Sequence record: KM389298.1
Origin: Escherichia phage CBA6
Strand: one strand, 5' to 3'
DNA length: 10,064 nt
The notes beneath the pieces were generated by a model. The model was not told the origin of the DNA. It saw nothing but the letters and a program-made list of their open reading frames with translations, and searched no databases. The translations under genes and the position numbers were made by a program. Positions 1 through 10,064 of the stretch are shown one piece after another. The number at the start of each line of letters is the position of its first letter. The first letter of the stretch is position 1.

Positions 1-1495
1 GAACTTTGATCAGTATTTGGAATCGGCTGTAATCACCTTTGAAGTCATATCCTTCTTCCATGGCCGGACTGGCAATAACACAAGGTGTTTTTGTCCTGAA
101 GGCATTTTCCATAATATCCATCAACGCCTTTCGAGTGCGTGGCACATGGATAAAGTTCTGGTATTTGCTGAATTTTTGTATTGCTAATGCGCGATCATAG
201 CTCACTGTATGTATGATGCCAGATTGCCCTGGATGGAATGCGATTATTTCATCAATGTATTCCGTCAGCCTTTTCATTTCATAATCGCCCATGTTGTTGG
301 TCATCTTAACGATGGGCATATAGTTGACTTTCCGATTTTCAATTGGGATTGGATTTCCAATCTGTATTGAATGATAATCCCCCTGGCGGATACCCAAGGA
401 ACGGGCATATGAATCGATTCCGCAGATTGTTGCCGACATATGAACATGGTAATCGGCTTTCCTGAACAATCCAAATTCACTTACATCAGAAGGCATGACG
501 GGTTTAAACCGAATAAAGTCATCTCCCTTTTCCTGTACGATAAAGGTGCTGGCCTTTGTCTGAGACATAATACCACAATAATCACTCAGATTGTGTAGTA
601 CATCGATAATGTCGGCGAGTTTCATCACCTGGCTTTCACTCAGGCGGTCATCTTCAACCAATTCTTCAAGAACTTCCAACAAAGACTCCACTTTAAGATG
701 GAGGTCTTCAAACATCGAATGCATTTCACCGGACAAGGAATACAACTTGCCCAAGACATAGTCCTTGGTGCGTTCTACGATATCGGCAATGATAGAGACT
801 ATCTCCTTCCCTTCGGGGATAGTTCGCAGCCCATCCACAGCCTTTGTATTGTATTCCATTATCGTGTGCTCTAGGAGCGTAGAGGGCATCTTATGACACT
901 CGTCTAAGATCAGCATATCGGAACGGTTTTCAGGCTTCATACAGATGGTGGTGCACATCTCAATCATCATAGCTGCATTAGTGCAACGCAATGACGAAAT
1001 ATCAGTCCATAAATTGCGCGCCTGTACATAAGGACAACGGCGTTTGCTACAATGCCCGTCGCGGCATGCTATACGGCATTGCACGGCGTTGTAATACACA
1101 TCTGGGTGTACGTGGCAACGATAGTTCTTCTTGCCTTTCAGGATGTCTATCGCCACCGCCTTTTCAGCAGCATACTGATCTTGTAGACCTTTGGTGGGCG
1201 TACTGATAGACGTGCGGAATTGCCCATAAGGATCGGCCTGTAAAACCAAATGGCGAATCACTTTATGAATTGTTGTCCCGATCAAAGATTTCCCCACGCC
1301 AGTTGGGGCTTCAATGATCACGTGTTTGACCTTTTTGTTGACCAAGGCATCAACGGCTTCGACGATACATTCCATCTGGCCTTGGTTCGCCTTGTCATAT
1401 GGAAATTCGTTTTTGGCAAGGCTTTGTATTTCTTCTATAGGAACCTTACGGCCTATGGCGTCAATCGCCTTTCGGTATTGATTAAATGCTGTCAC
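1..1495 (-). CDS. XPD/DinG/Rad3-family (Fe-S) superfamily-2 DNA helicase, N-terminal portion; 3' end lies beyond the left edge of the window
   Basis: Manual minus-strand translation is open from 1495 to position 1. It contains Walker A 'EAPTGVGKS', a four-Cys cluster (CHVHPDVYYNAVQCRIACRDGHCSKRRCPY) between Walker A and a 'LDECH' DEAH-type box, the arrangement characteristic of XPD/DinG helicases. Start assigned to GTG at 1495..1493, preceded by SD AAAGGAGGAA with about 6-nt spacing; an in-frame stop lies just upstream at 1559..1561. Confidence 0.7.
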   Translation of the reverse strand, partial: MTAFNQYRKAIDAIGRKVPIEEIQSLAKNEFPYDKANQGQMECIVEAVDALVNKKVKHVIIEAPTGVGKSLIGTTIHKVIRHLVLQADPYGQFRTSISTPTKGLQDQYAAEKAVAIDILKGKKNYRCHVHPDVYYNAVQCRIACRDGHCSKRRCPYVQARNLWTDISSLRCTNAAMMIEMCTTICMKPENRSDMLILDECHKMPSTLLEHTIMEYNTKAVDGLRTIPEGKEIVSIIADIVERTKDYVLGKLYSLSGEMHSMFEDLHLKVESLLEVLEELVEDDRLSESQVMKLADIIDVLHNLSDYCGIMSQTKASTFIVQEKGDDFIRFKPVMPSDVSEFGLFRKADYHVHMSATICGIDSYARSLGIRQGDYHSIQIGNPIPIENRKVNYMPIVKMTNNMGDYEMKRLTEYIDEIIAFHPGQSGIIHTVSYDRALAIQKFSKYQNFIHVPRTRKALMDIMENAFRTKTPCVIASPAMEEGYDFKGDYSRFQILIKV

Positions 1496-1546
1496 GTTGT
1501 TCCTCCTTTGGGTTCTGTTATAGTTTACCCGAATTCCAACAACGAA

Positions 1547-1572
1547 AAAGCCGAGGCATTAACCTCGGCTTT
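1547..1572 (-). terminator. Rho-independent terminator hairpin, likely bidirectional, downstream of the HU gene
   Basis: Seen in sequence: AAAGCCGAGG-cattaa-CCTCGGCTTT, a 10-bp stem flanked by T-runs on both strands. On the minus strand it is followed by TTCGTTGTT. Confidence 0.55.
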
Positions 1573-1580
1573 CTCTTTTA

Positions 1581-1601
1581 GCCTAACACGCTGTGCTAGG
1601 C
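1581..1601 (-). terminator. Second stem-loop immediately after the HU stop codon, forming a tandem pair with 1547..1572
   Basis: Seen in sequence: GCCTAACAC-gct-GTGCTAGGC. The 9-bp stem is fully paired only in the minus-strand RNA (one G-U wobble); on the plus strand the same position is an A-C mismatch. Confidence 0.35.
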
Positions 1602-1620
1602 ACGACCGCTCTGAATGTGA

Positions 1621-1899
1621 TTACTGGCCGTTGGCGGCAGCTTTCAGACCTTCGCCGACTTTGAATTTAACAACATTTTTCGCTTCGATCTGAATCGCTT
1701 GCCCGTTCAGCGGGTTGCGGCCAGTGCGCGCTTCCTGATGTTTAACTTCAAACGCGCCGAAGCCGACGAATTGGACAGATTGGCCAGCTGCGACTGCAGT
1801 TTTTACGCCGTTGATAAAGGATGCCACGATCTTCTCTGCTTCGCCTTTGGTCATACCCTGAGTCTGGGCGATGTGAGCGATAAAATCAGTACGGTTCAT
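1621..1899 (-). CDS. HU/IHF-family (DNABII) histone-like DNA-binding protein, 92 aa
   Basis: Translation MNRTDFIAHIAQTQGMTKGEAEKIVASFINGVKTAVAAGQSVQFVGFGAFEVKHQEARTGRNPLNGQAIQIEAK... carries the HU signature (GFGxF, RTGRNP arm). Start taken as the internal ATG at 1899..1897, preceded by GGAG; the 12-codon extension in the track has no SD. Confidence 0.85.
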   Translation of the reverse strand: MNRTDFIAHIAQTQGMTKGEAEKIVASFINGVKTAVAAGQSVQFVGFGAFEVKHQEARTGRNPLNGQAIQIEAKNVVKFKVGEGLKAAANGQ

Positions 1900-1982
1900 T
1901 CGGATTACTCCAGTTAGTTGTTTACAATGTTTCACTACAAGAGGACTACAGCTTACCTAACAAATATTATTGAATAAAGCGT

Positions 1983-2774
1983 TTATTTGCCGACGTTCAG
2001 CATTTTACCTGAGCCGGATCCGTCAACGATCAGAGTACATTTTCCACTATTGGCACATGATTGTAATACCATGTTATATTCATGTTGAAGATATTCAGGC
2101 GTCAGCGAAGTGGTCAGTTTCTGGTTCGCTTGGGCTTCTTGCTCGCGAATTTCAACGTTCTTTCTTGCCGTATCCAATCGTTTGTCCGCCATAACATTAT
2201 CACGGATAGACTGCTCAATAGAAGGATCCGTCAGCGCCTTTTTGACCAACACGCGTGTGATTGTGAACATGCCAGGCGCAGCAGTCTCTAATTGTTGCTG
2301 AGTGCGGTCTTTAATCATCTTCTCTAATTCAGCACGTTGGGTGTGAATTGTCATAGAATCAAGAGAAGAAACGGCGTCCATCGAAGAAGATGCTGCAGCA
2401 GTTTTAACTAGATTGAAACCCACCGCTATCGTGCCATCATCGAGTTCGGCGCTCTGGCCAGCAAATTTGGTATGGAACCACGGAACCTTTGCGACATTGG
2501 GTGTGTAATAAACATCCACATCCAAGTCTTCCAGAGTCAGGTTGTCTTTGGCCTTTGGCGTCATTTTAGTCAGACTCACAACGGCTTCTTTGGTCGTGTA
2601 AACATCCACGCTTGAAACAAAGCTGGTGTAGATCCCCGCTGTTACAGGGTTCATGTCTACTTCACCCCATTGGGTGCGAACGCCGACATTACCTTCATCG
2701 ATAACGCCACCACAACCAGAAAGTAGACTTGCAGCCAGAACCATAATTGCACCGAACACCAATTTCTTGAACAT
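1983..2774 (-). CDS. Lipoprotein with SPFH/band-7 (stomatin/prohibitin/HflKC-like) domain
   Basis: N-terminus MFKKLVFGAIMVLAASLLSGC has a signal peptide and lipobox (LSG-C). The body resembles SPFH domains (e.g. ...LEDLDVDVYYTP... and ...RVLVKKALTDPSIEQSIRDNVMADKRLDTARKNVEIREQEAQ...). ATG at 2774..2772 overlaps the upstream stop (TGATG). Confidence 0.6.
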   Translation of the reverse strand: MFKKLVFGAIMVLAASLLSGCGGVIDEGNVGVRTQWGEVDMNPVTAGIYTSFVSSVDVYTTKEAVVSLTKMTPKAKDNLTLEDLDVDVYYTPNVAKVPWFHTKFAGQSAELDDGTIAVGFNLVKTAAASSSMDAVSSLDSMTIHTQRAELEKMIKDRTQQQLETAAPGMFTITRVLVKKALTDPSIEQSIRDNVMADKRLDTARKNVEIREQEAQANQKLTTSLTPEYLQHEYNMVLQSCANSGKCTLIVDGSGSGKMLNVGK

Positions 2775-2983
2775 CAATGTACCCCTTCAAAAATGTAGAT
2801 ATATGCACCCAATGTGAGTGCGGTTATTGTAACCGAAGAAATCAGCAGCAGGAAAGTTACCCTCACCCGTTTGCGCCAACGTTTACTTCGGTAGATTTTA
2901 GTCTCTTTCAAGTATTTGAAAAAGAAAAATAAAATGAATGTTGAAATTACGAATATGAACAGGTAACGAATTAATCCGATCAT
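2774..2983 (-). CDS. Small hydrophobic membrane protein, 69 aa, about two predicted TM helices
   Basis: MIGLIRYLFIFVISTFILFFFFKYLK...VTFLLLISSVTITALTLGAYIYIF has two hydrophobic stretches separated by a basic loop. ATG at 2983..2981 lies one base after the stop of the upstream gene (TAAAATG); its stop overlaps the lipoprotein start. Confidence 0.55.
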   Translation of the reverse strand: MIGLIRYLFIFVISTFILFFFFKYLKETKIYRSKRWRKRVRVTFLLLISSVTITALTLGAYIYIFEGVH

Positions 2984-2984
2984 T

Positions 2985-3167
2985 TTACACCTGCGTTTTC
3001 CACAATCGCTTGATATTGTTGTTGAACTGGAACAAATCATAATCACCCAGAGCATTCTTCAGGCGCTGCGCTTCTTCAAATGTTGGAACCTCAACATGAA
3101 AAGCGATCCCAGGAACCTGGGGAATATGCCAAACGCGAAATTTAAGTTCAAACGGTTTATTCGACAT
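2985..3167 (-). CDS. Hypothetical protein, 60 aa
   Basis: ORF with ATG at 3167..3165 preceded by GGGAGA; overlaps the upstream gene by 11 nt and sits within the coupled gene string. No recognisable motif. Confidence 0.5.
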   Translation of the reverse strand: MSNKPFELKFRVWHIPQVPGIAFHVEVPTFEEAQRLKNALGDYDLFQFNNNIKRLWKTQV

Positions 3168-3444
3168 GGGGTTCTCCCTGAGACAGTATGGTTTTCATCT
3201 GTTCACGCGTGATAATTGTTTCAACAAGATTCTCGTCAATCATCATTTCGTTTAACAGTTCACAACCCAGCACGTGTGGTCGCGCCATATACGGCATGGC
3301 GTTGAGTTTTTCTTCTATGTCAAGAACGCGCTTGACAGTCAGACCCATAGAAGAAAAGGGAACAGGATAAAAGAATGAAATGATCTGATTATCCATCCCG
3401 TTTGAAAATCTCACTAATAATACATCACACCATACACCGGACAT
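3157..3444 (-). CDS. Hypothetical protein, 95 aa
   Basis: Start assigned to ATG 3444..3442, preceded by GGTGGAGGTG and located one base after the stop of the 223-aa gene (TAATATG). The longer 108-aa form in the track would overlap the upstream gene by 38 nt and lacks an SD. Confidence 0.55.
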   Translation of the reverse strand: MSGVWCDVLLVRFSNGMDNQIISFFYPVPFSSMGLTVKRVLDIEEKLNAMPYMARPHVLGCELLNEMMIDENLVETIITREQMKTILSQGEPHVE

Positions 3445-3445
3445 A

Positions 3446-4117
3446 TTACACCTCCACCGAGTGGGATTTAAGTAGTTCATCAATTCCTTTCTGCCCCATG
3501 TAAGAGAACGGGGTACGCTGGTAGAACGCCCACAGGACTAATTGAACGACGGCGCGGGAACGGCTTTCGGAACGCATCTCAAGTCCGCGAAAATGTGGTG
3601 ATTCGGCAGTCCATTGGATCTCTTCACCCAGGTCTTCGTTACAATCCACCGAAATGCGGAATTTATGACACAACGCGTCTACTTCTCCGTAAGCATCAGT
3701 GGAAACCCTGAGTTGTTCTGCATGCGCCCAAGAAGTCGTAACAATCCGTTCGCCCATCACTTTGTCAGAAACAAACCAATCAATCGATTGAGTGAAATCA
3801 TCGAAGTGATCAATACGATAGATAATCCCATGACCTTCCATACATTTCATGGCATGATAACGTGCGTCAATTTCATTATTGTGCATCGCGTTGAAGTCGA
3901 TGTAAACCCGCCTCGCCAACACAACGTCTTCTGGCTTCAAAGAGACCATCGTCGTGTCATTCATCGTGTAATGAAGGATGCCTGTACCACGCCCACAGTC
4001 ATGTTGGCAATACACGTATTTGTCCCCACCAACACGGGCATAAGCAATATAACAAGGTTCTGAGAATCGAAGGTTTCCTTGGTCTGCGCCAAGGATGATA
4101 GGATAAGATTTGTCCAT
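3446..4117 (-). CDS. Hypothetical protein, 223 aa, Cys/His-rich, function unknown
   Basis: Long ORF on the same strand as all neighbours, first gene after the 4140..4160 hairpin. No motif I can assign confidently. Confidence 0.7.
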   Translation of the reverse strand: MDKSYPIILGADQGNLRFSEPCYIAYARVGGDKYVYCQHDCGRGTGILHYTMNDTTMVSLKPEDVVLARRVYIDFNAMHNNEIDARYHAMKCMEGHGIIYRIDHFDDFTQSIDWFVSDKVMGERIVTTSWAHAEQLRVSTDAYGEVDALCHKFRISVDCNEDLGEEIQWTAESPHFRGLEMRSESRSRAVVQLVLWAFYQRTPFSYMGQKGIDELLKSHSVEV

Positions 4118-4130
4118 AATATATATCTCT

Positions 4131-4160
4131 CAAATAAAAGGCGGTTTAATAATAACCGCC
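4131..4160 (-). terminator. Rho-independent terminator between the 269-aa and 223-aa genes
   Basis: Minus-strand RNA: GGCGGTT-attatta-AACCGCC followed by TTTTATTTG. Strong only on the minus strand. Confidence 0.6.
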
Positions 4161-4174
4161 CGATTGTTATTGAA

Positions 4175-4984
4175 TTACTTTATATCACCAACATACATGT
4201 TCAGGGTTTCATCCCATTCTAAACGAACACGAATAGTGCCAGAATCGTTAGGGAAAGACAACTTACTAGACATATGTTTGTTGGCATACGTTCCGCTCTT
4301 GTTTACGGGATAATCGTTCCCTTCACTAATAGCAAATCGTTTAAAATTCCGGCTTACCATCATATTGATGTTCGGCCATGGTAGTTGTTCACGCAGAGTT
4401 TTACACAATATGATCTTTCCGTTGCATCGGAATGACACAAATAAATCATTTGGAGAAGAATAGCGTTGTTCTTGCGGACACAACTGTCGTATTGAAATAA
4501 ATTCGGACTCATCATTATTTTCTACCGGAGGCTTCATGGATTCTTCTCTTCTCTTTTCAACATATTGTTCGAAAGCCTTTTGACCCACAGGTGGGAGCGG
4601 ATTATTGGTGACAGGCATAACGGCTGGTTTGATTTCCGGCTTCTCCGCGGATGATGTGCGAGCGACTCGAAGTTTTTCCTGAGCCTCTAAAATCCTTTCT
4701 TGGCGGGTTTTGGGTTTAGTTTCAACCTTAGAGCTAAAATCGCAGACCGTAACCCAATCACCCTGATCATTGCGCTTGGCAACCAGAGTCAGTTTATAGA
4801 TGATGCCCTGCAGCTTACTTTCGCGCATAGTGTCTGCGAACCAGAAAGCACAACCCTGCTCGAACTTTTCAGCGAAGATGACGCGCCCGTCTTCGTGAAT
4901 CAGAATGACCTTTGCTTTGTTGGGCGCGAACACCTTATTCTTTTCAACGATCGATTCAGCGATCTTTTTAGTAATAATCATCAC
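4175..4984 (-). CDS. Hypothetical protein, about 269 aa, two regions joined by a Pro/Lys/Glu-rich linker
   Basis: Long ORF; SD AAGGAA lies 7 nt before GTG 4984..4982 (ATG at 4981 is an alternative start). The leader GAAAGGAAATACTTC resembles the leaders at 6889..6910 and 7448..7470. No recognisable catalytic motif. Confidence 0.65.
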   Translation of the reverse strand: MMIITKKIAESIVEKNKVFAPNKAKVILIHEDGRVIFAEKFEQGCAFWFADTMRESKLQGIIYKLTLVAKRNDQGDWVTVCDFSSKVETKPKTRQERILEAQEKLRVARTSSAEKPEIKPAVMPVTNNPLPPVGQKAFEQYVEKRREESMKPPVENNDESEFISIRQLCPQEQRYSSPNDLFVSFRCNGKIILCKTLREQLPWPNINMMVSRNFKRFAISEGNDYPVNKSGTYANKHMSSKLSFPNDSGTIRVRLEWDETLNMYVGDIK

Positions 4985-5031
4985 GAAGTATTTCCTTTCA
5001 GTTCAATGGAAGTTAAATTTTAACCTGAAAA

Positions 5032-5352
5032 TTATCTTTGATTTCCAACGAAATTAGTCGCTATTTCCCGACACATAGTCAGATCTTTGATCGTCTGTTT
5101 GCTATTGTCGGCAGCGGACTCCATCATTGGCAAATCTAAAGCATTCTCTATTTGATCCACGCTGTAGAGATCAAGGCGTTTCAACTCACCTTCATAATCT
5201 GATAAAAGGATGGATGTATCCTTATCGTCGGGGTGAAATTGTTGATAAGTAGACAACCAGGCCGCACATATATTCAATTTGCTGGCCGGAGTTGCCATAA
5301 CTTGGAATGATGCTAACATAGAAAAGAATAACAAGAATATTATGTTTCTCAT
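5032..5352 (-). CDS. Small exported (periplasmic/secreted) protein, 106 aa
   Basis: N-terminus MRNIIFLLFFSMLASFQVMA-TPAS is a typical Sec signal peptide with an AxA-like cleavage site. ATG 5352..5350 preceded by AAGGAG; overlaps the upstream stop as ATGA. Confidence 0.65.
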   Translation of the reverse strand: MRNIIFLLFFSMLASFQVMATPASKLNICAAWLSTYQQFHPDDKDTSILLSDYEGELKRLDLYSVDQIENALDLPMMESAADNSKQTIKDLTMCREIATNFVGNQR

Positions 5353-6038
5353 CTTTCGTTCTCCTTCATCATATTGTCGCAGTCAATCCGTGTTTGCTTG
5401 AGTTCACGCGAAAGCCTTGGGTCGTCTAGATTGACAGACAAATTAGTAGAAAGATCTTTCAATCCGTTCTGAACACGATCCTCATAGTAATAATCATTTT
5501 CTACGAGCCATGCTCTCAGCCCCAACGCACGTGTCCGCCATTCCTTTTTCAAACGTCGATCTGATTCTTGGTCGGCACTATATTCAAACACCTTGATGCA
5601 TTGGTTGCCATCATTGATCAGATCCAAATGTCGACGCCCGATTTGCACACCCTTCTGTAATGCCGGAGAGGGGAGAGAACGGCATTGCCTTACAGTCATA
5701 CGGCCTTGTGTGCCCATACGGCCAGTCATGATGAGATCGCCAGCCTCCATGCCTCCTCGGTTAAATTCATCGTCGTTCATATATCCTTTCAGGTTGAATG
5801 CGCCTTGCTTATATCGATTAAACTCGATACCAGCATTTACAACGGCATCTGTGACATTACCTGTGGCCCAGAGTTCAGAAAAGTTCTCTATGGAACCAGT
5901 TTTGTCTATAGCCACGGCTTGGGAGAACCCAGCACAGTAGGAAAGATCAGACCACAGTTTTTCACCTGTGGAATTCAGCTTGGCGGTGGCAGGAAGTGCC
6001 AGACCAGCCAGCACAACCGCGATGATTAAACGTTTCAT
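5349..6038 (-). CDS. Exported protein with cleavable signal peptide, about 229 aa
   Basis: Start assigned to ATG 6038..6036 (MKRLIIAVVLAGLALPATA-KLN), preceded by AAGGAG at 7-nt spacing. The 22-codon N-terminal extension in the track has no SD. Confidence 0.7.
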   Translation of the reverse strand: MKRLIIAVVLAGLALPATAKLNSTGEKLWSDLSYCAGFSQAVAIDKTGSIENFSELWATGNVTDAVVNAGIEFNRYKQGAFNLKGYMNDDEFNRGGMEAGDLIMTGRMGTQGRMTVRQCRSLPSPALQKGVQIGRRHLDLINDGNQCIKVFEYSADQESDRRLKKEWRTRALGLRAWLVENDYYYEDRVQNGLKDLSTNLSVNLDDPRLSRELKQTRIDCDNMMKENER

Positions 6039-6066
6039 GGTGATTCTCCTTATTTCATTGGATAAA

Positions 6067-6095
6067 ATGATAGGGCTGTCACCATGTTGAGTAAA
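6067..6095 (-). promoter_or_regulatory. Candidate sigma70-type promoter for the exported-protein gene pair
   Basis: Minus strand: -35 TTTACT (6095..6090), 17-bp spacer, -10 TATCAT (6072..6067), located in the 84-bp gap upstream of the 6038 start. Confidence 0.35.
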
Positions 6096-6122
6096 GGGTT
6101 TCAATAAACTATCGTATTCAGA

Positions 6123-6572
6123 TCAGTATCGACTATCACTGACCGTTCTGTATCGCACCCCTTGAAACTGTTTAGCGAGTTTAACAAATTCCATCGCTGG
6201 CAAATCAACTTTGTAGACCTTCATGCGCTGTTTGCCGTCCATGTTCAACGCAGCGACAAATCGGTGAGAACCGTCAACAACGTAATTGTCAGAAGACACC
6301 CAAACTCGACCCATGGGCTTCTTATTTCTGATCTGCTTCATAATCTTCCAGACCTTCATTTTATTGATTTCGTTCTGGGTAAGACGAAGCATTTTGATAG
6401 GCACTTGCGCAGCATCTATAGACACGCCGTTGTCTTCAAGATATTTGTGAAAATCTTCTTGTTTGTCTGCATCGATTTGCGGCATAGAAGAACGAGAAAG
6501 CCCGAGGTTCCCAACAGGAATCCTCAGGCCATTTATGATATTCATCCAGTCAATAAAGGATGTAAGGAACAT
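6123..6572 (-). CDS. ParB/Srx-fold (ParB-like nuclease / sulfiredoxin superfamily) domain protein, 149 aa
   Basis: Segment ...MLRLTQNEINKMKVWKIMKQIRNKKPMGRVWVSSDNYVVDGSHRFVAALNMDGKQRMKVYKV matches the ParB/Srx pattern (hydrophobic strand, then DG-x-HR-x-x-A, then hydrophobic strand). ATG 6572..6570 preceded by GAGGTG. Confidence 0.5.
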   Translation of the reverse strand: MFLTSFIDWMNIINGLRIPVGNLGLSRSSMPQIDADKQEDFHKYLEDNGVSIDAAQVPIKMLRLTQNEINKMKVWKIMKQIRNKKPMGRVWVSSDNYVVDGSHRFVAALNMDGKQRMKVYKVDLPAMEFVKLAKQFQGVRYRTVSDSRY

Positions 6573-6609
6573 GACACACCTCGGGATATAGGGTTATCCC
6601 TTAGTTAGT

Positions 6610-6888
6610 TCATTCGGACTTAAACAACAATTCGCGAACAGAAGTCCCAACGATATTCTGGGTGTTCAACAAACGAGTTAAATCATCCATGTCATATGCT
6701 GAATTGGTGATATGACGCAAGATAATCGCCAACATTCCCTCCAGCGCTCTCCGATTGTTATTCTCTTCAATGTCAAACTTAATTTCAACAAATCGAGATA
6801 GCATTCTGGATTGAGCATGAGTTTCGTTGGTTTTGCTCTGTATAATATCTTTGATTTCCGAACGAGCAATACTTCTTTGATCTGTCAT
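6610..6888 (-). CDS. Hypothetical protein, 92 aa, starting MTDQ
   Basis: ORF with ATG 6888..6886 preceded by AAGGAA. Its leader and first four codons are near-identical to those of the 6941..7447 gene. Confidence 0.6.
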   Translation of the reverse strand: MTDQRSIARSEIKDIIQSKTNETHAQSRMLSRFVEIKFDIEENNNRRALEGMLAIILRHITNSAYDMDDLTRLLNTQNIVGTSVRELLFKSE

Positions 6889-6946
6889 GATATAGTTCCT
6901 TCATTTCAAATGGGCGGGGCAAAGATACCCCGCCGTGGGTTTATAG
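6877..6946 (-). repeat. Copy A of a ~70-bp regulatory cassette: TATAAA box, GC-rich stem-loop, CATTTGAAATGAAGGAA leader, ATG ACA GAT CAA
   Basis: Aligned by eye to 7436..7505 at roughly 80% identity. Stem-loop GGCGGGG-n8-CCCCGCC at 6913..6934. Confidence 0.6.
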
Positions 6947-7447
6947 GGTAATAAGTGATACGGTAAAAACCATCGTCCCATCTGTTGTCATTTTTCTTGA
7001 AACTGGGAAGACGCGAGGCTGGCAGAATATCCATTCTTTCTCCATGGACGCCAAGTCCAGCATATCCATTTCTGATTCATCGTCTTTGTTCACAAATTTT
7101 TCTAGAGAACCAAAGACATTAAGCCCCTCTGGGAGTCCGTTTCGATGTTTGTAACAAATGCGAGCAACAGCTCTGGTTCCATACGATTTAGAAAATTGTT
7201 TGGCCACATGCTTCAGTTCGCTGAAACTAAGACAAGAATCCCATGTCTGAAACATGTCTCCTCGTTCAAACATCATCTCCAAACGCGCAACGTCCTCTTT
7301 AGGCAACCCGCGATAAAGTGTGGTCATCTGCGGTTCGCGTAATTCTTGCACCAGACCACGGATGGCAGGGGAAACAGTGCCAGGGCGCATGATGTGGGAC
7401 TTATCATGGACGAGGTAAAATAAATCTTGAATTTGTTGATCGGTCAT
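6941..7447 (-). CDS. Candidate mono-ADP-ribosyltransferase (R-S-ExE class), 168 aa
   Basis: Three motifs in the order and approximate spacing of R-S-E ADP-ribosyltransferases: 'TLYRG' (aromatic-Arg), 'LSFSE' (S-x-S) and 'EKEWIF' (E-x-E followed by hydrophobics). ATG 7447..7445 preceded by AAGGAA. Assignment is from motifs only. Confidence 0.45.
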   Translation of the reverse strand: MTDQQIQDLFYLVHDKSHIMRPGTVSPAIRGLVQELREPQMTTLYRGLPKEDVARLEMMFERGDMFQTWDSCLSFSELKHVAKQFSKSYGTRAVARICYKHRNGLPEGLNVFGSLEKFVNKDDESEMDMLDLASMEKEWIFCQPRVFPVSRKMTTDGTMVFTVSLITL

Positions 7448-7505
7448 GATGTATTTCCTTCATTTCAAATAGGCGGGGTAATCATACCCCACCCTAAGTT
7501 ATAGA
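7436..7505 (-). repeat. Copy B of the ~70-bp regulatory cassette (TATAAC box, stem-loop, shared leader, ATG ACC GAT CAA)
   Basis: Stem-loop GGTGGGGTA-tgat-TACCCCGCC in minus-strand RNA (plus-strand 7472..7493). Identity to copy A covers leader, SD, start codon and codons 2-4. Confidence 0.6.
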
Positions 7506-7506
7506 A

Positions 7507-7746
7507 TTAACTGATGTGCTTCAGAAGAGCGAAGAGGATCGCGGCCTTGGCTTTCACCTTTCCGACGACGCCTGTTTCGACATCGACTTCTTCGGCAACC
7601 CAATCTTTTCCCTTCTTGCTGATGATAACATCGCGGCGCTGGGCATATACTTCTTTGGTCGCATACACACGACGGAACCCTTTAGCGCGGAGCAAGCCCC
7701 AATTACGATCAATCTCCACTGAAGTTTCTACTATTTTGTTCTTCAT
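7507..7746 (-). CDS. Hypothetical small basic protein, 79 aa
   Basis: ORF with ATG 7746..7744 preceded by AAAGGTAAG; lies downstream of the promoter candidate at 7798..7826. No recognisable motif. Confidence 0.55.
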   Translation of the reverse strand: MKNKIVETSVEIDRNWGLLRAKGFRRVYATKEVYAQRRDVIISKKGKDWVAEEVDVETGVVGKVKAKAAILFALLKHIS

Positions 7747-7797
7747 GATATAATCTTACCTTTCAACCTGGTGAACCCATCGTTCGCCAGTTATTGA

Positions 7798-7826
7798 ATA
7801 ATACGCATTTGCCTTATAGAAGTAAA
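7798..7826 (-). promoter_or_regulatory. Candidate sigma70-type early promoter
   Basis: Minus strand: -35 (G)TTTACT at 7826..7821, exactly 17-bp spacer, -10 TATTAT at 7803..7798; sits between a terminator and the 7746 start. Confidence 0.4.
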
Positions 7827-7830
7827 CCCC

Positions 7831-7861
7831 TAAAAGTAAAAATCCCCAACGTTTGTTGGGG
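7831..7861 (-). terminator. Rho-independent terminator downstream of the ACP-like gene
   Basis: Minus-strand RNA: CCCCAAC-aaac-GTTGGGG followed by ATTTTTACTTTT. Confidence 0.6.
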
Positions 7862-7869
7862 ATCTTCAG

Positions 7870-8196
7870 TTACTTGCGCAGGGCAACCACGTATTCGGCA
7901 AGTTCACCCATGGTCGGGTCGTCGCCTTTACCGCCCAGCCAGCCATCAGAGATCTCGACATTGAACTCTTCTTCTAGTTCCATGACGATTTCGATGGCAT
8001 CAAGATCGTCGCCGCCGAGGTCTTTCTTGGTGCGGAGGCCAGCCAGTTTATCCAGGGCGTCATTCATAATCACTTCCGCGTCGACGATGCCTTTGATGCT
8101 GCTCTTGTCTTCGTCACTGACTTCCAGGTTCAGATTGTCAGTGGCGTACTGAGCCAGGTGACGCATTACTTCAACATAAGTTGGTTTGTTTGACAT
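7870..8196 (-). CDS. Acyl carrier protein (ACP)-like protein with Asp in place of the phosphopantetheine-attachment Ser, about 108 aa
   Basis: Core ...KKDLGGDDLDAIEIVMELEEEFNVEISD... aligns with canonical ACP helix II (E. coli ...[27 protein letters not shown]...), but the conserved DSL Ser is Asp (codon GAT at 8015..8013, checked on the DNA). Start taken as ATG 8196..8194; ATG 8202..8200 is an alternative. Confidence 0.7.
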   Translation of the reverse strand: MSNKPTYVEVMRHLAQYATDNLNLEVSDEDKSSIKGIVDAEVIMNDALDKLAGLRTKKDLGGDDLDAIEIVMELEEEFNVEISDGWLGGKGDDPTMGELAEYVVALRK

Positions 8197-8215
8197 AAGC
8201 ATATCTCAAAATGAA

Positions 8216-8231
8216 GGCGGGTTTCCCCGCC
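8216..8231 (-). terminator. Stem-loop between the large upstream gene and the ACP-like gene (weak terminator or RNA processing/stability element)
   Basis: GGCGGG-gaaa-CCCGCC followed on the minus strand by TTCATTTTGAG. Same stem composition and YATTTGA tail as the other intergenic hairpins. Confidence 0.4.
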
Positions 8232-8239
8232 AGTTGAAT

Positions 8240-10064
8240 TTAGATTTTGACTTCTTTTTCAGACAGTTCGGCAGTGACGGTGTATTTCACCCCATCAACT
8301 TCCACATCCATAGTGGATTCTTCCAAATCCAGGTCGGTAAACCAACCATGGCCTGCAACAATCCCATAAACTACCTTGGACAGCGTTTTGTTCAGGGCGC
8401 GGACTTCGTTAATGGCTGCTTTTGCTGCATCACCAATCCAACTTTCGATCAGCTTTTTCTGAGTCTCTTCCGGTACGCTGGTGATCATCGGCGATTTAAC
8501 AAACGCATTGTATTCAGCCAGGGCATTAGCGATCAGCTGATCAGCGACATTCAGTTTTTTACCGTCCGTCTGTTTTTTGATAACAGACGCGATGCTCGGC
8601 AGTGAAGATGCGCCTTTGATTTTCACATTCAATTCACGACTCATATAGACATCGGTTGATTCTACAGAAGAAGTCTTCGGTGAAAATCCATAGTCGCGAA
8701 TGCCGTTTGCTGACAGGAAATCAGCCGCTTCTTTGCCATATTTTGAAGCCAGACCCGTAGCGTTGCCTTTTCCAACCAGTTCATCACGGTAGAATTTCAG
8801 AACTTTCTGTTTTGCCTTCAATGCTTCACGGCGCACATTGTCTGCAAAGAATTCAGCAGCACTGATATTCTTTGTCATGGCGCGGTTAACCATTGGGACA
8901 CTTTCCAGATTTACAATGAAGACTTCCGGCCCACCAAACACATGAACACCCATGGCAGTCAAATCCTGTGCCACCTTAGCCCGAACAATCGGAGAATCTG
9001 CAGTGATAGGCATTGTTTTCAGGTTGATGATACCATCCTTGACAATGGTGTAATTGCGATAACGCCATGTATCCAGCTCTTCAGGAAGTTCATATTTCTT
9101 CTGTACAAACTCGGGCACAACAACCGTTCCGTGTTGAACTGTCTGCACACTGATGTTAGGACGTTCTGAATTATAGACCAAATTGCTGATCGGGACAATC
9201 CCTTTATCATCTGCTGGATTGAATTCCGGCGTCCAATCTTCGTGCTCGGCCAGTTTGAGCGCCAGGGCTTTACGCTCTTCTTTAGAAGTCGCATTCGCAA
9301 TCTCTTCGGCCAACTTGTCTTCGGTGTCGTCAACTTTTTGTATAGTACCGCGCCCAATGCTCTTGTAAGAGAATAGCGGATGCTTGGTGACGATAGAGAC
9401 ATCTGCTTCAGCCAAATACGTCAGAACATCAACAATGGTGGTGGCGTCTTCAGCCGGAACCATATTATAATCGATGCCATCAACTCCTCGCAGAGATTCG
9501 TCTACGATAGCCTGAGTCAGATCGACTTTGATGTTGGAGTAATCCTGCTTGGTGAAACAGTTGCTGTATTGTTTGATGAAGCGGACGTCACCCGTTTTCT
9601 TCAGCGCAGCCCAAACCAAATCTGCGTCCATGGTATACACGCCGTAAAATGCCAGCACGTATGCCGCTTGGATGTCTGCCAGATTATCCAGCTGGTCGAT
9701 CATGTTGGGGTTTACAACCCACAGCTGAGAAACGCTTTCAGGGATGCTGACGTGGCCAATAGGGTGCTCTTCATCAGGATGCACGGCTAAAACAGTCGCC
9801 ACGCCATTTTCAACATAAATGGCATGGGTGTAAACCAGGGGAACATCGACCACCACTTTCGGTGAAGAAGTTTTTAGCACGTTTTCCAATTCGGTCTGAT
9901 ATTCATTCTGGCCTTCAGCGAATACGTGGGTCGCACCAGAACGTTCTGCCATTAGCGCCAGCAGTTCGCGATTACAATACCAACCGTATTCGATGAAGGT
10001 AATGTTATCAAACGCTTTGGGCAGTACTTCAGCGGCATCCAGGATTTCATTAGAACGCCAGCAG
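8240..10064 (-). CDS. Large hypothetical protein (at least 570 aa in window, probably longer); N-terminus likely beyond the right edge
   Basis: ORF 8240..9952 in the track; the same frame stays open with protein-like sequence (…SNEILDAAEVLPKAFDNITFIEYGWYCNRELLAL-MAERSG…) from 9953 to 10064, and no SD precedes ATG 9952. No Walker A, polymerase, ligase or other catalytic motif recognised. Confidence 0.6.
   Translation of the reverse strand, partial: CWRSNEILDAAEVLPKAFDNITFIEYGWYCNRELLALMAERSGATHVFAEGQNEYQTELENVLKTSSPKVVVDVPLVYTHAIYVENGVATVLAVHPDEEHPIGHVSIPESVSQLWVVNPNMIDQLDNLADIQAAYVLAFYGVYTMDADLVWAALKKTGDVRFIKQYSNCFTKQDYSNIKVDLTQAIVDESLRGVDGIDYNMVPAEDATTIVDVLTYLAEADVSIVTKHPLFSYKSIGRGTIQKVDDTEDKLAEEIANATSKEERKALALKLAEHEDWTPEFNPADDKGIVPISNLVYNSERPNISVQTVQHGTVVVPEFVQKKYELPEELDTWRYRNYTIVKDGIINLKTMPITADSPIVRAKVAQDLTAMGVHVFGGPEVFIVNLESVPMVNRAMTKNISAAEFFADNVRREALKAKQKVLKFYRDELVGKGNATGLASKYGKEAADFLSANGIRDYGFSPKTSSVESTDVYMSRELNVKIKGASSLPSIASVIKKQTDGKKLNVADQLIANALAEYNAFVKSPMITSVPEETQKKLIESWIGDAAKAAINEVRALNKTLSKVVYGIVAGHGWFTDLDLEESTMDVEVDGVKYTVTAELSEKEVKI

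What the first reader, a model, noticed from the sequence alone, without database searches (positions are those of the whole stretch)
5032..6038. Translationally coupled pair of exported proteins
Both products have canonical Sec signal peptides and the genes overlap as ATGA, so they are expressed together and sent to the periplasm or cell surface. Phage early-region exported proteins are classic candidates for superinfection exclusion (T4 Imm/Sp-like), receptor masking or interference with envelope defences. Neither shows a motif I recognise.
Basis: inference. Interest (0 to 1): 0.45.

Follow-up and report, generated by a model that had tools for sequence, protein, structure and literature searches.

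The report
Secreted phage protein pair, mislabelled spanins
Two overlapping genes of a Salmonella Vi1-like (Kuttervirus) phage encode a conserved pair of small proteins exported to the space between the bacterial membranes; databases call them "spanins" (cell-bursting proteins), but they lack the membrane anchors that define spanins, so their real job, probably protecting the infected cell's envelope early in infection, is still unknown.

Summary
On the minus strand, gene A (6038..5349, 229 aa) and gene B (5352..5032, 106 aa) overlap as ATGA. Both have strong Shine-Dalgarno sites and Sec-type leaders ending in AxA cleavage sites.

The window is a Kuttervirus (Ackermannviridae), ~96% identical to phage Mutine. 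The pair is a family-wide core module: A is in 270 phage records, B in 277, always adjacent with a stop/start overlap, even at ~30% identity. Purifying selection is strong.

RefSeq and PHROGs call the pair "i-spanin / Rz-like spanin". That label traces to one entry (phage Marshall), which the SpaninDB curators accepted "taking his word". It fails the defining features:
- A has an 11-13-residue h-region plus P-A-x-A|K in 31/31 clusters, so a cleavable leader and not a membrane anchor.
- B has no lipobox in the window or in 30/37 clusters.
- Mature B is a confident helical bundle, not a Pro-rich tether.

The same paper lists the other ten Vi1-like phages it names as spanin-less. These include SJ2, whose B is identical to the window's.

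B's fold and A's sequence match nothing characterised. T4 Spackle is similar in layout only. The pair has its own highly conserved early-class promoter and was not reported in two virion proteomes.

Best reading: an early, soluble periplasmic complex acting on the envelope. Superinfection exclusion or envelope protection is the leading guess and is untested.

The parts
5349..6038 (-). Gene A: 229-aa secreted protein. The predicted leader is residues 1-19 (6038..5982), leaving 210 mature residues with 4 invariant Cys (C35, C119, C147, C220). PHROG 4260, 'unknown function'; some records call it 'i-spanin'.
   Evidence: Translation. phrog_4260 at 1.4e-156. No Pfam, NCBIfam or PADLOC hit. Alignment A1. 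Leader analysis of 31/31 clusters. dN/dS 0.05-0.07.
5032..5352 (-). Gene B: 106-aa secreted protein. The predicted leader is residues 1-20 (5352..5293). The 86 mature residues are acidic (pI 4.5) and form a helical bundle with 2 invariant Cys (C29, C94). PHROG 3843, labelled 'Rz-like spanin'.
   Evidence: Translation. phrog_3843 at 3.9e-58. Alignments A2 and A3. AF2 model with pLDDT 86. No lipobox. pI and Cys counts.
5349..5352 (-). ATGA stop/start overlap that couples translation of B to A.
   Evidence: Sequence. A stop/start overlap is conserved in 6/6 lineages.
6046..6051 (-). Shine-Dalgarno AAGGAG of gene A, 7 nt before the ATG.
5361..5366 (-). Shine-Dalgarno AAGGAG of gene B, inside the 3' end of gene A.
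6067..6095 (-). Proximal sigma-70-type promoter TTTACT-17-TATCAT. It is the same class as the 'putative early promoter' (GTTTAC...TATTAT) annotated in LIMEstone1.
   Evidence: Scan. Both hexamers are invariant and only the spacer varies between Kuttervirus and Limestonevirus. LIMEstone1 early promoter sequence.
6039..6122 (-). Intergenic leader/promoter region that is more conserved than the genes around it.
   Evidence: It is 92.9% identical to LIMEstone1. By comparison, the gene A CDS is 78.8% identical (55% at third codon positions) and neighbouring intergenic regions are 44-71%.
6036..6086 (-). 8-bp perfect inverted repeat. The 5' arm CATGGTGA (6086-6079) lies in the promoter spacer. The 3' arm TCACCATG (6043-6036) covers the start codon of A. 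The hairpin could mask the start only on read-through transcripts (inference).
   Evidence: No Rfam family. Overall fold z = -1.0, not significant.
7798..7826 (-). Distal early-class promoter (TTTACT-17-TATTAT) at the head of the leftward gene block that contains the pair. It is preceded by a terminator hairpin at about 7862-7837.
   Evidence: A homologous site is annotated 'putative early promoter' in LIMEstone1.
4139..4161 (-). First intrinsic terminator downstream of the pair, after the 269-aa gene at 4984..4175.
   Evidence: The same site is annotated as a terminator in Mutine.

Best explanation
Genes A and B encode two Sec-exported proteins whose leaders are removed by signal peptidase I. 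The mature proteins are therefore soluble in the periplasm. A (about 210 aa) probably carries two disulfides, and B (about 86 aa, an acidic helical bundle) probably one.

They are made together. Translation is coupled through a conserved stop/start overlap, and transcription comes from a dedicated, unusually conserved promoter of the host sigma-70 'early' class. They form an Ackermannviridae-specific core pair with no relatives elsewhere. Strict co-occurrence and coupling suggest that they act as a complex.

They are not spanins. The most likely role is to bind a conserved envelope component, or the penetration apparatus of an incoming phage, soon after infection. That would protect the infected cell through superinfection exclusion or resistance to lysis from without. 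This is functionally analogous to, but not homologous with, T4 Spackle.

Sub-confidences:
- Topology, co-expression and family distribution are shown or follow directly from sequence and comparison (about 0.85).
- 'Not a canonical spanin': about 0.9.
- Early expression is inferred from promoter class (about 0.6).
- Complex formation is inferred (about 0.6).
- The exclusion or envelope-protection role is inference by analogy and context only (about 0.35).
For: **Export and cleavage.** The A family has an 11-13-residue h-region, a Pro at -4 and A-x-A|K in 31/31 clusters. The B family satisfies the -3/-1 rule at one aligned column in 37/37 clusters, directly before the conserved mature N-terminus. 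The leaders are hypervariable while the mature parts are nearly invariant. Cys counts are even and invariant: 4 in A (2 in the one-domain Miltonvirus form) and 2 in B.

**Pairing.** A is in 270 phage records and B in 277, with identical host breakdowns. The genes are adjacent with a stop/start overlap in Kuttervirus, Limestonevirus, Miltonvirus and two divergent metagenomic lineages. The divergent lineages have no obvious SD for B, so B there probably depends on coupling.

**Narrow family.** Only 10 hits for A among 1.84 billion representatives, and 42 clusters for B.

**Early expression.** The promoter TTTACT-17-TATCAT matches the class annotated as early in LIMEstone1. The upstream region is 92.9% identical across subfamilies, against 78.8% for the CDS. 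The late consensus TATAAATA has 0 matches at <=1 mismatch in the window, where 8-14 are expected. Neighbouring genes are of the host-takeover type: a Mod/Alt-like ADP-ribosylase, a P22 gp17-like protein, Lar and HU.

**Not a virion component.** The pair is not marked structural in LIMEstone1 although ORF101, ORF108 and ORF093 are. It is not annotated among the reported Sajous1 virion proteins.

**Spackle analogy.** T4 Sp is 97 aa with a 22-aa leader, a C-x-W near the mature N-terminus and a second Cys near the C-terminus.
Against: - There is no experimental datum on function for any family member.
- There is no homology or fold match to Spackle, Imm, RI or any other exclusion protein.
- Strict family-wide conservation and very low dN/dS are unlike many fast-evolving exclusion or anti-defence genes. 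They would also suit a housekeeping step such as lysis.
- Ackermannviridae have no identified holin or spanin (Mutine paper; Kongari Table 10), so some unrecognised envelope-active lysis proteins must exist.
- A minority Kuttervirus clade carries a lipobox on B: 7/37 clusters, about a quarter of member sequences.
- No dedicated signal-peptide predictor was run.
- The A model was unusable (pLDDT 38).
- Promoter timing is inferred and has not been measured.
Confidence: 0.45

Rival explanations
1. Canonical two-component spanin, as annotated in RefSeq, PHROGs and SpaninDB. [quoted passage not shown] Together they would bridge the periplasm and fuse the two membranes at the last step of lysis.
For: - phrog_3843 is named 'Rz-like spanin'.
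- The Marshall orthologues are listed in SpaninDB as a 'separated' pair.
- The gene order, large then small with overlap, resembles spanin architecture.
- Marshall-type B proteins carry a canonical lipobox, LIAG|C.
- No other spanin is known in this phage family.
Against: - The window's B has no lipobox, and neither do 30/37 clusters or any divergent lineage. A sibling of the lipobox clade has LMAGS.
- C29 follows a charged residue outside the h-region, has I/T/K/M at -1, and is paired in conservation with C94, so it is a structural Cys.
- A has a 12-residue h-region plus P-A-T-A|K, which is a cleavable leader and not a type II anchor, in 31/31 clusters including Marshall.
- Mature B is a confident globular helical bundle with 3.5% Pro.
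- SpaninDB's own data for Marshall: 206-aa periplasmic domain, 35% helix, 0 coiled coils, flagged 'too long', singleton, curator note 'taking his word'.
- The same paper lists Vi01, CBA120, PhaxI, ECML-4, SFP10, SJ2, SJ3, Maynard, AG3 and RC-2014 as spanin-less. The window's B is 100% identical to SJ2's.
- The pair has an early-class promoter, there is no late promoter in the window, and it is not adjacent to the endolysin.
Confidence: 0.04
2. Non-canonical lysis function. The soluble periplasmic pair would either be an anchor-less outer-membrane disruptor that replaces spanins in this 'spanin-less' family, or a lysis-timing regulator such as a T4 RI-like periplasmic antiholin acting on an unidentified holin.
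For: - It is a core gene pair under strong purifying selection across the whole family.
- The family lacks any identified holin, antiholin or spanin, and the 2024 family review is silent on lysis.
- T4 RI is also a ~100-aa helical periplasmic protein whose N-terminus looks like a signal peptide (own knowledge).
- rIIA and rIIB are present in the family.
Against: - The promoter is early-class and there is no late promoter.
- No sequence or fold similarity to any solved structure, RI and holin T included if they are in the PDB copy (not verified here).
- No mechanism is known for outer-membrane disruption by soluble acidic periplasmic proteins.
- The -3/-1 site is conserved in all leaders, which argues for cleavage and against a SAR domain.
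Confidence: 0.15
3. Periplasmic modulator or inhibitor of a host envelope enzyme, stress pathway or envelope-associated defence, unrelated to exclusion of other phages. Examples would be blocking a host hydrolase, protease or nuclease, or an envelope stress sensor, to keep the cell productive.
For: - The proteins are soluble, disulfide-stabilised and small, like known periplasmic inhibitor proteins.
- The family switches between soluble and lipoprotein forms, as the PliC/MliC lysozyme inhibitors do (own knowledge).
- Conservation across phages of Salmonella, Klebsiella, Dickeya, Serratia and Erwinia implies a target conserved in Enterobacterales or in the phage itself.
- The neighbourhood contains host-takeover genes.
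Against: - No PADLOC or Pfam hit.
- No candidate target has been identified.
Confidence: 0.25
4. Virion or assembly component that is exported or membrane-associated during morphogenesis.
For: The immediately upstream ParB-like gene and the nearby vWA gene are confirmed virion proteins in LIMEstone1 and gave spectra in Sajous1.
Against: The pair itself was not reported in either virion proteome although its neighbours were. Sec export with a cleaved leader puts the proteins in a different compartment from cytoplasmic assembly of a tailed phage.
Confidence: 0.03

Closest known systems
Two-component spanins (lambda Rz/Rz1; SpaninDB entry for Salmonella phage Marshall)
   Same: Two adjacent genes, large then small, with overlapping stop/start. 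Both products enter the periplasm and have periplasmic Cys. The Marshall orthologues (about 85% and 70% identical) are the listed 'separated' spanin pair, and PHROG 3843 carries the name.
   Different: There is no type II membrane anchor on A and no lipobox on B, either in this phage or in most relatives. B is a globular helical bundle, not a short Pro-rich tether. No coiled coil is predicted. The promoter is early-class and the pair is not in a lysis cassette. The Marshall entry is a singleton flagged as doubtful by its curators, and all sister phages are listed as spanin-less.
T4 Spackle (Sp, gp61.3), periplasmic superinfection-exclusion protein that inhibits the gp5 tail lysozyme
   Same: Compared with B: about 100-aa precursor, about 20-aa cleavable Sec leader, small all-helical mature protein, one Cys close to the mature N-terminus followed by Trp, a second Cys near the C-terminus, an early gene, and a host phage that carries a gp5-like tail lysozyme.
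T4 RI antiholin (periplasmic lysis-inhibition sensor)
   Same: Small helical periplasmic protein with an N-terminus that looks like a signal peptide, in a T4-like myovirus that also has rIIA and rIIB.
   Different: RI's leader is an uncleaved SAR domain. Here a -3/-1 cleavage site is conserved in every family member. No T-type holin is known in Ackermannviridae, and there is no sequence or fold similarity.
Phage and bacterial envelope-binding proteins that occur in both soluble and lipoprotein forms (T5 Llp / Cor-type lipoproteins; PliC/MliC lysozyme inhibitors)
   Same: The B family switches between a plain SPase I leader (most members) and a lipobox leader (Marshall clade) on an otherwise conserved domain. 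This is typical of binding or inhibitor proteins that work whether tethered or free.
   Different: No homology. Those proteins are beta-rich or much smaller. The target here is unknown.

Membership tests
i-spanin (Rz-like) | N-terminal transmembrane domain that anchors the protein in the inner membrane (type II, uncleaved) | tested here: not met
   The h-region is 11-13 residues, followed by P-A-x-A|K, in 31/31 clusters including the Marshall type. The upstream TTG extension is not conserved. This test is rule-based and comparative; SignalP/DeepTMHMM was not available, and a KD window alone is ambiguous.
i-spanin (Rz-like) | Periplasmic domain dominated by coiled-coil alpha-helices, about 80-130 aa | tested here: inconclusive
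   SpaninDB's own tables for the Marshall orthologue give 206 aa, 35% helix, 12% strand and 0 coiled coils. LIMEstone1's annotation mentions a putative coiled coil. The AF2 model is too poor to decide (pLDDT 38).
o-spanin (Rz1-like) | Lipoprotein signal with a lipobox and the lipidated Cys as the first mature residue | tested here: not met
   The window's B reads MRNIIFLLFFSMLASFQVMA|TPASK, with no Cys in or at the end of the leader. 30/37 clusters and all divergent lineages lack a lipobox. C29 (LNIC) lies after a Lys outside the h-region and co-varies in conservation with C94.
o-spanin (Rz1-like) | Short, largely unstructured, Pro-rich mature domain | tested here: not met
   The mature part is 86 aa with 3.5% Pro. 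It is a confidently predicted helical bundle (pLDDT 86, residues 25-105).
Two-component spanin system | Adjacent, overlapped or embedded gene pair with i-spanin first | tested here: met
   A precedes B with a 4-nt overlap.
Two-component spanin system | Late expression and/or linkage to holin and endolysin genes | tested here: not met
   Early-class promoter. No TATAAATA at <=1 mismatch in the 10 kb. The neighbours are not lysis genes. The family endolysin lies elsewhere in the genome.
Two-component spanin system | Complements lambda Rz/Rz1 lysis defect; null mutant gives spherical non-lysing cells | not testable with these tools
   Needs wet-lab work. No report was found.
T4 Spackle (gp61.3) family | Sequence or structural homology to gp61.3 | tested here: not met
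T4 Spackle (gp61.3) family | Binds and inhibits the tail-associated lysozyme of superinfecting phage | not testable with these tools
   Needs a binding or activity assay, or multimer modelling, with the Kuttervirus gp5-like protein.
T4 Imm-type exclusion protein | Small integral inner-membrane protein with internal transmembrane helices | tested here: not met
   Neither A nor B has any hydrophobic segment beyond the N-terminal leader (sequences; mature GRAVY -0.75 and -0.50).

The most novel reading that the evidence does not exclude
The pair is a new kind of two-protein, anchor-less periplasmic system that is universal in Ackermannviridae. Either it is the long-sought outer-membrane/lysis-control device of these 'spanin-less' phages, working without any membrane tether, or it is a two-component superinfection-exclusion complex with an orphan fold that blocks the penetration machinery of incoming Vi1-like phages.
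Probability: 0.3. Interest if true: 0.7.

Novelty: new variant of a known kind. Interest (0 to 1): 0.4.

Why it matters
Ackermannviridae (Vi1-like phages) are heavily used in food safety and phage therapy. Even so, how they lyse cells and defend the infected cell is essentially unknown: no holin, no spanin, and the 2024 family review says nothing on lysis.

The label 'Rz-like spanin / i-spanin' now sits on hundreds of RefSeq and GenBank records. It is repeated in papers as evidence of a complete lysis arsenal. It rests on one undergraduate-course annotation and fails the defining features of spanins. Correcting it stops a propagating error and reopens the question of outer-membrane disruption in this family.

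The analysis also defines a cleanly delimited, family-wide pair of periplasmic proteins. It comes with its own conserved early promoter and one confident orphan fold, so it is a ready target for a knockout, an exclusion assay and a lambda Rz/Rz1 complementation test.

Tried and rejected
1. **Canonical spanin reading.** Rejected on anchor features.
2. **C29 of B (L-N-I-C) as a deviant lipobox.** Rejected. It lies after a charged residue outside the h-region, the -1 residue is I/T/K/M/L, and it is conserved together with C94 even in the clade that has a true lipobox at Cys15.
3. **Longer gene A from TTG-6104**, which would mimic a type II anchor. Rejected because the extension is not conserved.
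4. **A as a tandem duplication of a B-like domain.** The first hhalign gave a weak hint (probability 12%). Domain-wise profiles with divergent members gave probabilities below 1%. Rejected.
5. **Structure of A.** The AF2 model had pLDDT 38 and was unusable, so no fold search was run on it.
7. **Profile searches.** Pfam, NCBIfam, PADLOC and PDB sequences gave nothing.
8. **Deep searches for distant or bacterial homologues.** The family stays confined to Ackermannviridae-like contigs.
9. **Literature.** Searches for transcriptomics, CRISPRi screens or lysis studies of this family found nothing relevant.
10. **Conserved leader region as a known RNA.** No Rfam hit, and the fold is not significant.

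Full report
**What is there.**
The finding's coordinates exactly span two minus-strand genes. Gene A (6038..5349) encodes 229 aa beginning MKRLIIAVVLAGLALPATAKLNSTGEK. Gene B (5352..5032) encodes 106 aa beginning MRNIIFLLFFSMLASFQVMATPASKLNIC. The stop of A and the start of B overlap as ATGA, and each start is preceded by AAGGAG. The window belongs to a Kuttervirus (Vi1-like, Ackermannviridae) and is about 96% identical to Salmonella phage Mutine. B is 100% identical to the protein of phages SJ2 and Guerrero.

**Are they real, exported and coupled?**
Both genes are under strong purifying selection against Mutine and bering.
- Mature A has dN/dS 0.05-0.07.
- Mature B has 0 nonsynonymous against 5-9 synonymous changes.
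- The leader-coding parts drift faster, at 0.2-0.5.

In the A family, 31/31 clusters show MKR, an h-region of 11-13 residues, a Pro at -4 and A-x-A|K. In the B family the leader is hypervariable in length and sequence. Even so, 37/37 clusters satisfy the -3/-1 rule at the same aligned column, directly before the conserved mature N-terminus x-P-x-S/N-K/N-L-N-x-C-x-A-W.

A longer reading of A from TTG-6104 is not conserved in divergent lineages. Cys counts are even and invariant, 4 in A and 2 in B. That fits intramolecular disulfides in the periplasm, which is an inference. No dedicated signal-peptide predictor was available, so the topology call is rule-based and comparative.

**Distribution.**
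tblastn finds A in 270 phage records and B in 277, with identical host breakdowns: Salmonella 164, Klebsiella 44, Escherichia 28, Dickeya 19 and others. The extra B records are Serratia Miltonviruses, where A is reduced to its N-terminal domain (126 aa) but still overlaps B.

A HMMER scan of 1.84 billion representative proteins with the A profile gave 10 hits. A broadened B profile gave 42 clusters. All are on Ackermannviridae-like contigs. In two divergent lineages (about 30-35% identity; L003, L004) and in LIMEstone1 the pair is again adjacent with a stop/start overlap. There B again has a plain SPase I leader, two Cys and no lipobox. A published core-genome table lists both genes as Vi01-family core genes.

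**The public label 'spanin' does not survive.**
PHROG 3843 (B) is named 'Rz-like spanin', and several records call A 'i-spanin'. The label traces to the SpaninDB entry for phage Marshall. [quoted passage not shown] It also records a 206-aa periplasmic domain, 35% helix, zero coiled coils and singleton status. The Marshall paper is an undergraduate-course genome announcement with no lysis analysis.

Marshall's B does carry a canonical lipobox (LIAG|C). Only 7/37 clusters do, about a quarter of member sequences. A sibling cluster has LMAGS, and the window's B has none. Table 10 of the same paper lists Vi01, CBA120, PhaxI, ECML-4, SFP10, SJ2, SJ3, Maynard, AG3 and RC-2014 as spanin-less. [quoted passage not shown]

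So the defining features are not met. There is no type II anchor on A. There is no lipid anchor on B. Mature B is not a short Pro-rich tether: it has 3.5% Pro and is a confident helical bundle with pLDDT 86.

**What the proteins look like.**
B's model has helices at 25-39, 44-59, 65-69, 74-81 and 85-105.
- Foldseek against the PDB found nothing (best E 2.7).
- BFVD gave a single real match, an uncharacterised protein of Erwinia phage phiEa2809, which I believe is also an Ackermannviridae phage (own knowledge, not checked here).

The A model was unusable (pLDDT 38). Pfam, NCBIfam, PADLOC and PDB-sequence profiles gave nothing for either protein. An idea that A is a duplicated B-like domain was tested and rejected. 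Mature B is acidic in every lineage (pI 4.4-4.9), and A is near neutral.

I fetched T4 sp. It encodes 97 aa with a 22-aa leader, a C-x-W near the mature N-terminus and a second Cys near the C-terminus. It is present in the PDB copy, so the negative fold and profile searches were a genuine test. hhalign probability is 2.6%. The resemblance to B is architectural only. Imm-type topology is excluded by the lack of internal hydrophobic segments.

**Expression.**
The 84-nt region upstream of A is 92.9% identical between this phage and Dickeya phage LIMEstone1, which is in another subfamily. The comparison values are 78.8% for the gene A CDS (55% at third codon positions) and 44-71% for neighbouring intergenic regions. 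The only variable patch lies in the spacer between TTTACT (6095-6090) and TATCAT (6072-6067). This is the same promoter class as the 'putative early promoter' GTTTAC...TATTAT annotated in LIMEstone1. That promoter's counterpart in the window sits at 7826-7798, behind a terminator.

LIMEstone1's annotated late promoter is TATAAATA. The whole window has no match to it even with one mismatch, where 8-14 are expected. The next terminator downstream is at 4161-4139.

An 8-bp perfect inverted repeat pairs the promoter spacer with the start codon of A. It could silence read-through transcripts. This is suggestive only: there is no covariation, the fold z-score is -1.0, and the repeat is not seen in the divergent lineages.

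**Virion test.**
LIMEstone1's proteomics-based annotation marks ORF101, ORF108 and ORF093 as confirmed structural proteins, but not ORF100 or ORF099, which are the pair. The Sajous1 virion list includes the ParB-like, vWA, ACP and SPFH neighbours, and the pair is not annotated among the proteins reported.

**Conclusion.**
Shown or directly supported: a real, translationally coupled, Sec-exported, most probably SPase I-processed soluble periplasmic pair. It is family-wide and family-specific, has an orphan fold and carries its own conserved early-class promoter. It is not a canonical spanin and is not a detected virion component.

Inferred: the two proteins form a complex and act early on the envelope. 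Superinfection exclusion or envelope protection is the leading hypothesis (about 0.35). The alternatives are a host-envelope modulator (about 0.25), a non-canonical lysis or lysis-timing role (about 0.15), a canonical spanin (about 0.04) and a virion component (about 0.03).

Noticed in passing
window 1-10064, both strands: The T4-type late-promoter octamer TATAAATA has no match even with one mismatch. It is the sequence LIMEstone1's authors annotate as a late promoter (L008:384-391). Shuffles expect 8.2 +/- 2.9 (dinucleotide) or 14.4 +/- 4.0 (mononucleotide) matches. Syntenic loci of relatives have 3-7 one-mismatch sites and no exact match. The depletion suggests selection against late-promoter-like sequences in this early block.
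   Followed up: partly
window 6039-6122 (-): The intergenic region upstream of gene A is more conserved across subfamilies (92.9% against LIMEstone1) than any flanking coding sequence. It contains an 8-bp perfect inverted repeat (6086-6079 / 6043-6036) that would occlude the start codon only on transcripts starting upstream of the proximal promoter. This is the same logic as T4 gene e. There is no Rfam match.
   Followed up: partly
window 5293-5352 (-) and the alignment A2 leader columns: The signal peptide of B is hypervariable among otherwise near-identical phages. Within Kuttervirus and its close relatives there are at least eight unrelated leader types, 17-29 aa long, including a lipobox version. 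The mature domain is almost invariant. The cause is unexplained and could be leader swapping or relaxed constraint.
   Followed up: partly
window 2985-3167 (-) and 2774-3055 (-): The P22 gp17-like superinfection-exclusion gene is truncated here to 60 aa, matching only positions 1-47 of the 98-position Pfam model PF17420. It is 106 aa in Mutine. The next ORF encodes a 93-aa hydrophobic, probably two-pass membrane protein (phrog_11680) where Mutine has a LysM-domain gene annotated 'endolysin'. This looks like a local gene replacement.
   Followed up: no
window 1983-2777 (-): A genuine lipoprotein, with leader MMFKKLVFGAIMVLAASLLSG|C and an SPFH/Band-7 domain (PF01145, 3e-13). It is the only canonical lipobox in the window. 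It gave 3 spectra in the Sajous1 virion preparation. Together with the small membrane protein just upstream it may form an SPFH/NfeD-like pair.
   Followed up: no
window 6123-6572 (-): A 149-aa ParB/sulfiredoxin-like protein (DGSHR motif; weak PHROG ParB-like nuclease hits) lies directly upstream of gene A in every lineage examined (L003, L004, L005, L008). It is a confirmed virion protein in LIMEstone1 and gave 11 spectra in Sajous1.
   Followed up: partly
GenBank OR844945.1 (hit H26) and NCBI protein KB816_002863 (P0001): A 7.9-kb record named 'Enterococcus phage Efm 3-10' carries a 97%-identical gene A. A 'Salmonella enterica' assembly carries B on a 157-kb contig. These are probably a mislabelled or contaminant record and a phage contig inside a bacterial assembly.
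   Followed up: no
L005 / L006 (Serratia phage 3M, MH929319.1: 86227-86909): In Miltonvirus the large partner consists only of the N-terminal domain (126 aa, 2 Cys) but is still coupled to B. The C-terminal half of A is therefore dispensable in that lineage, which shows that A has at least two separable domains.
   Followed up: partly
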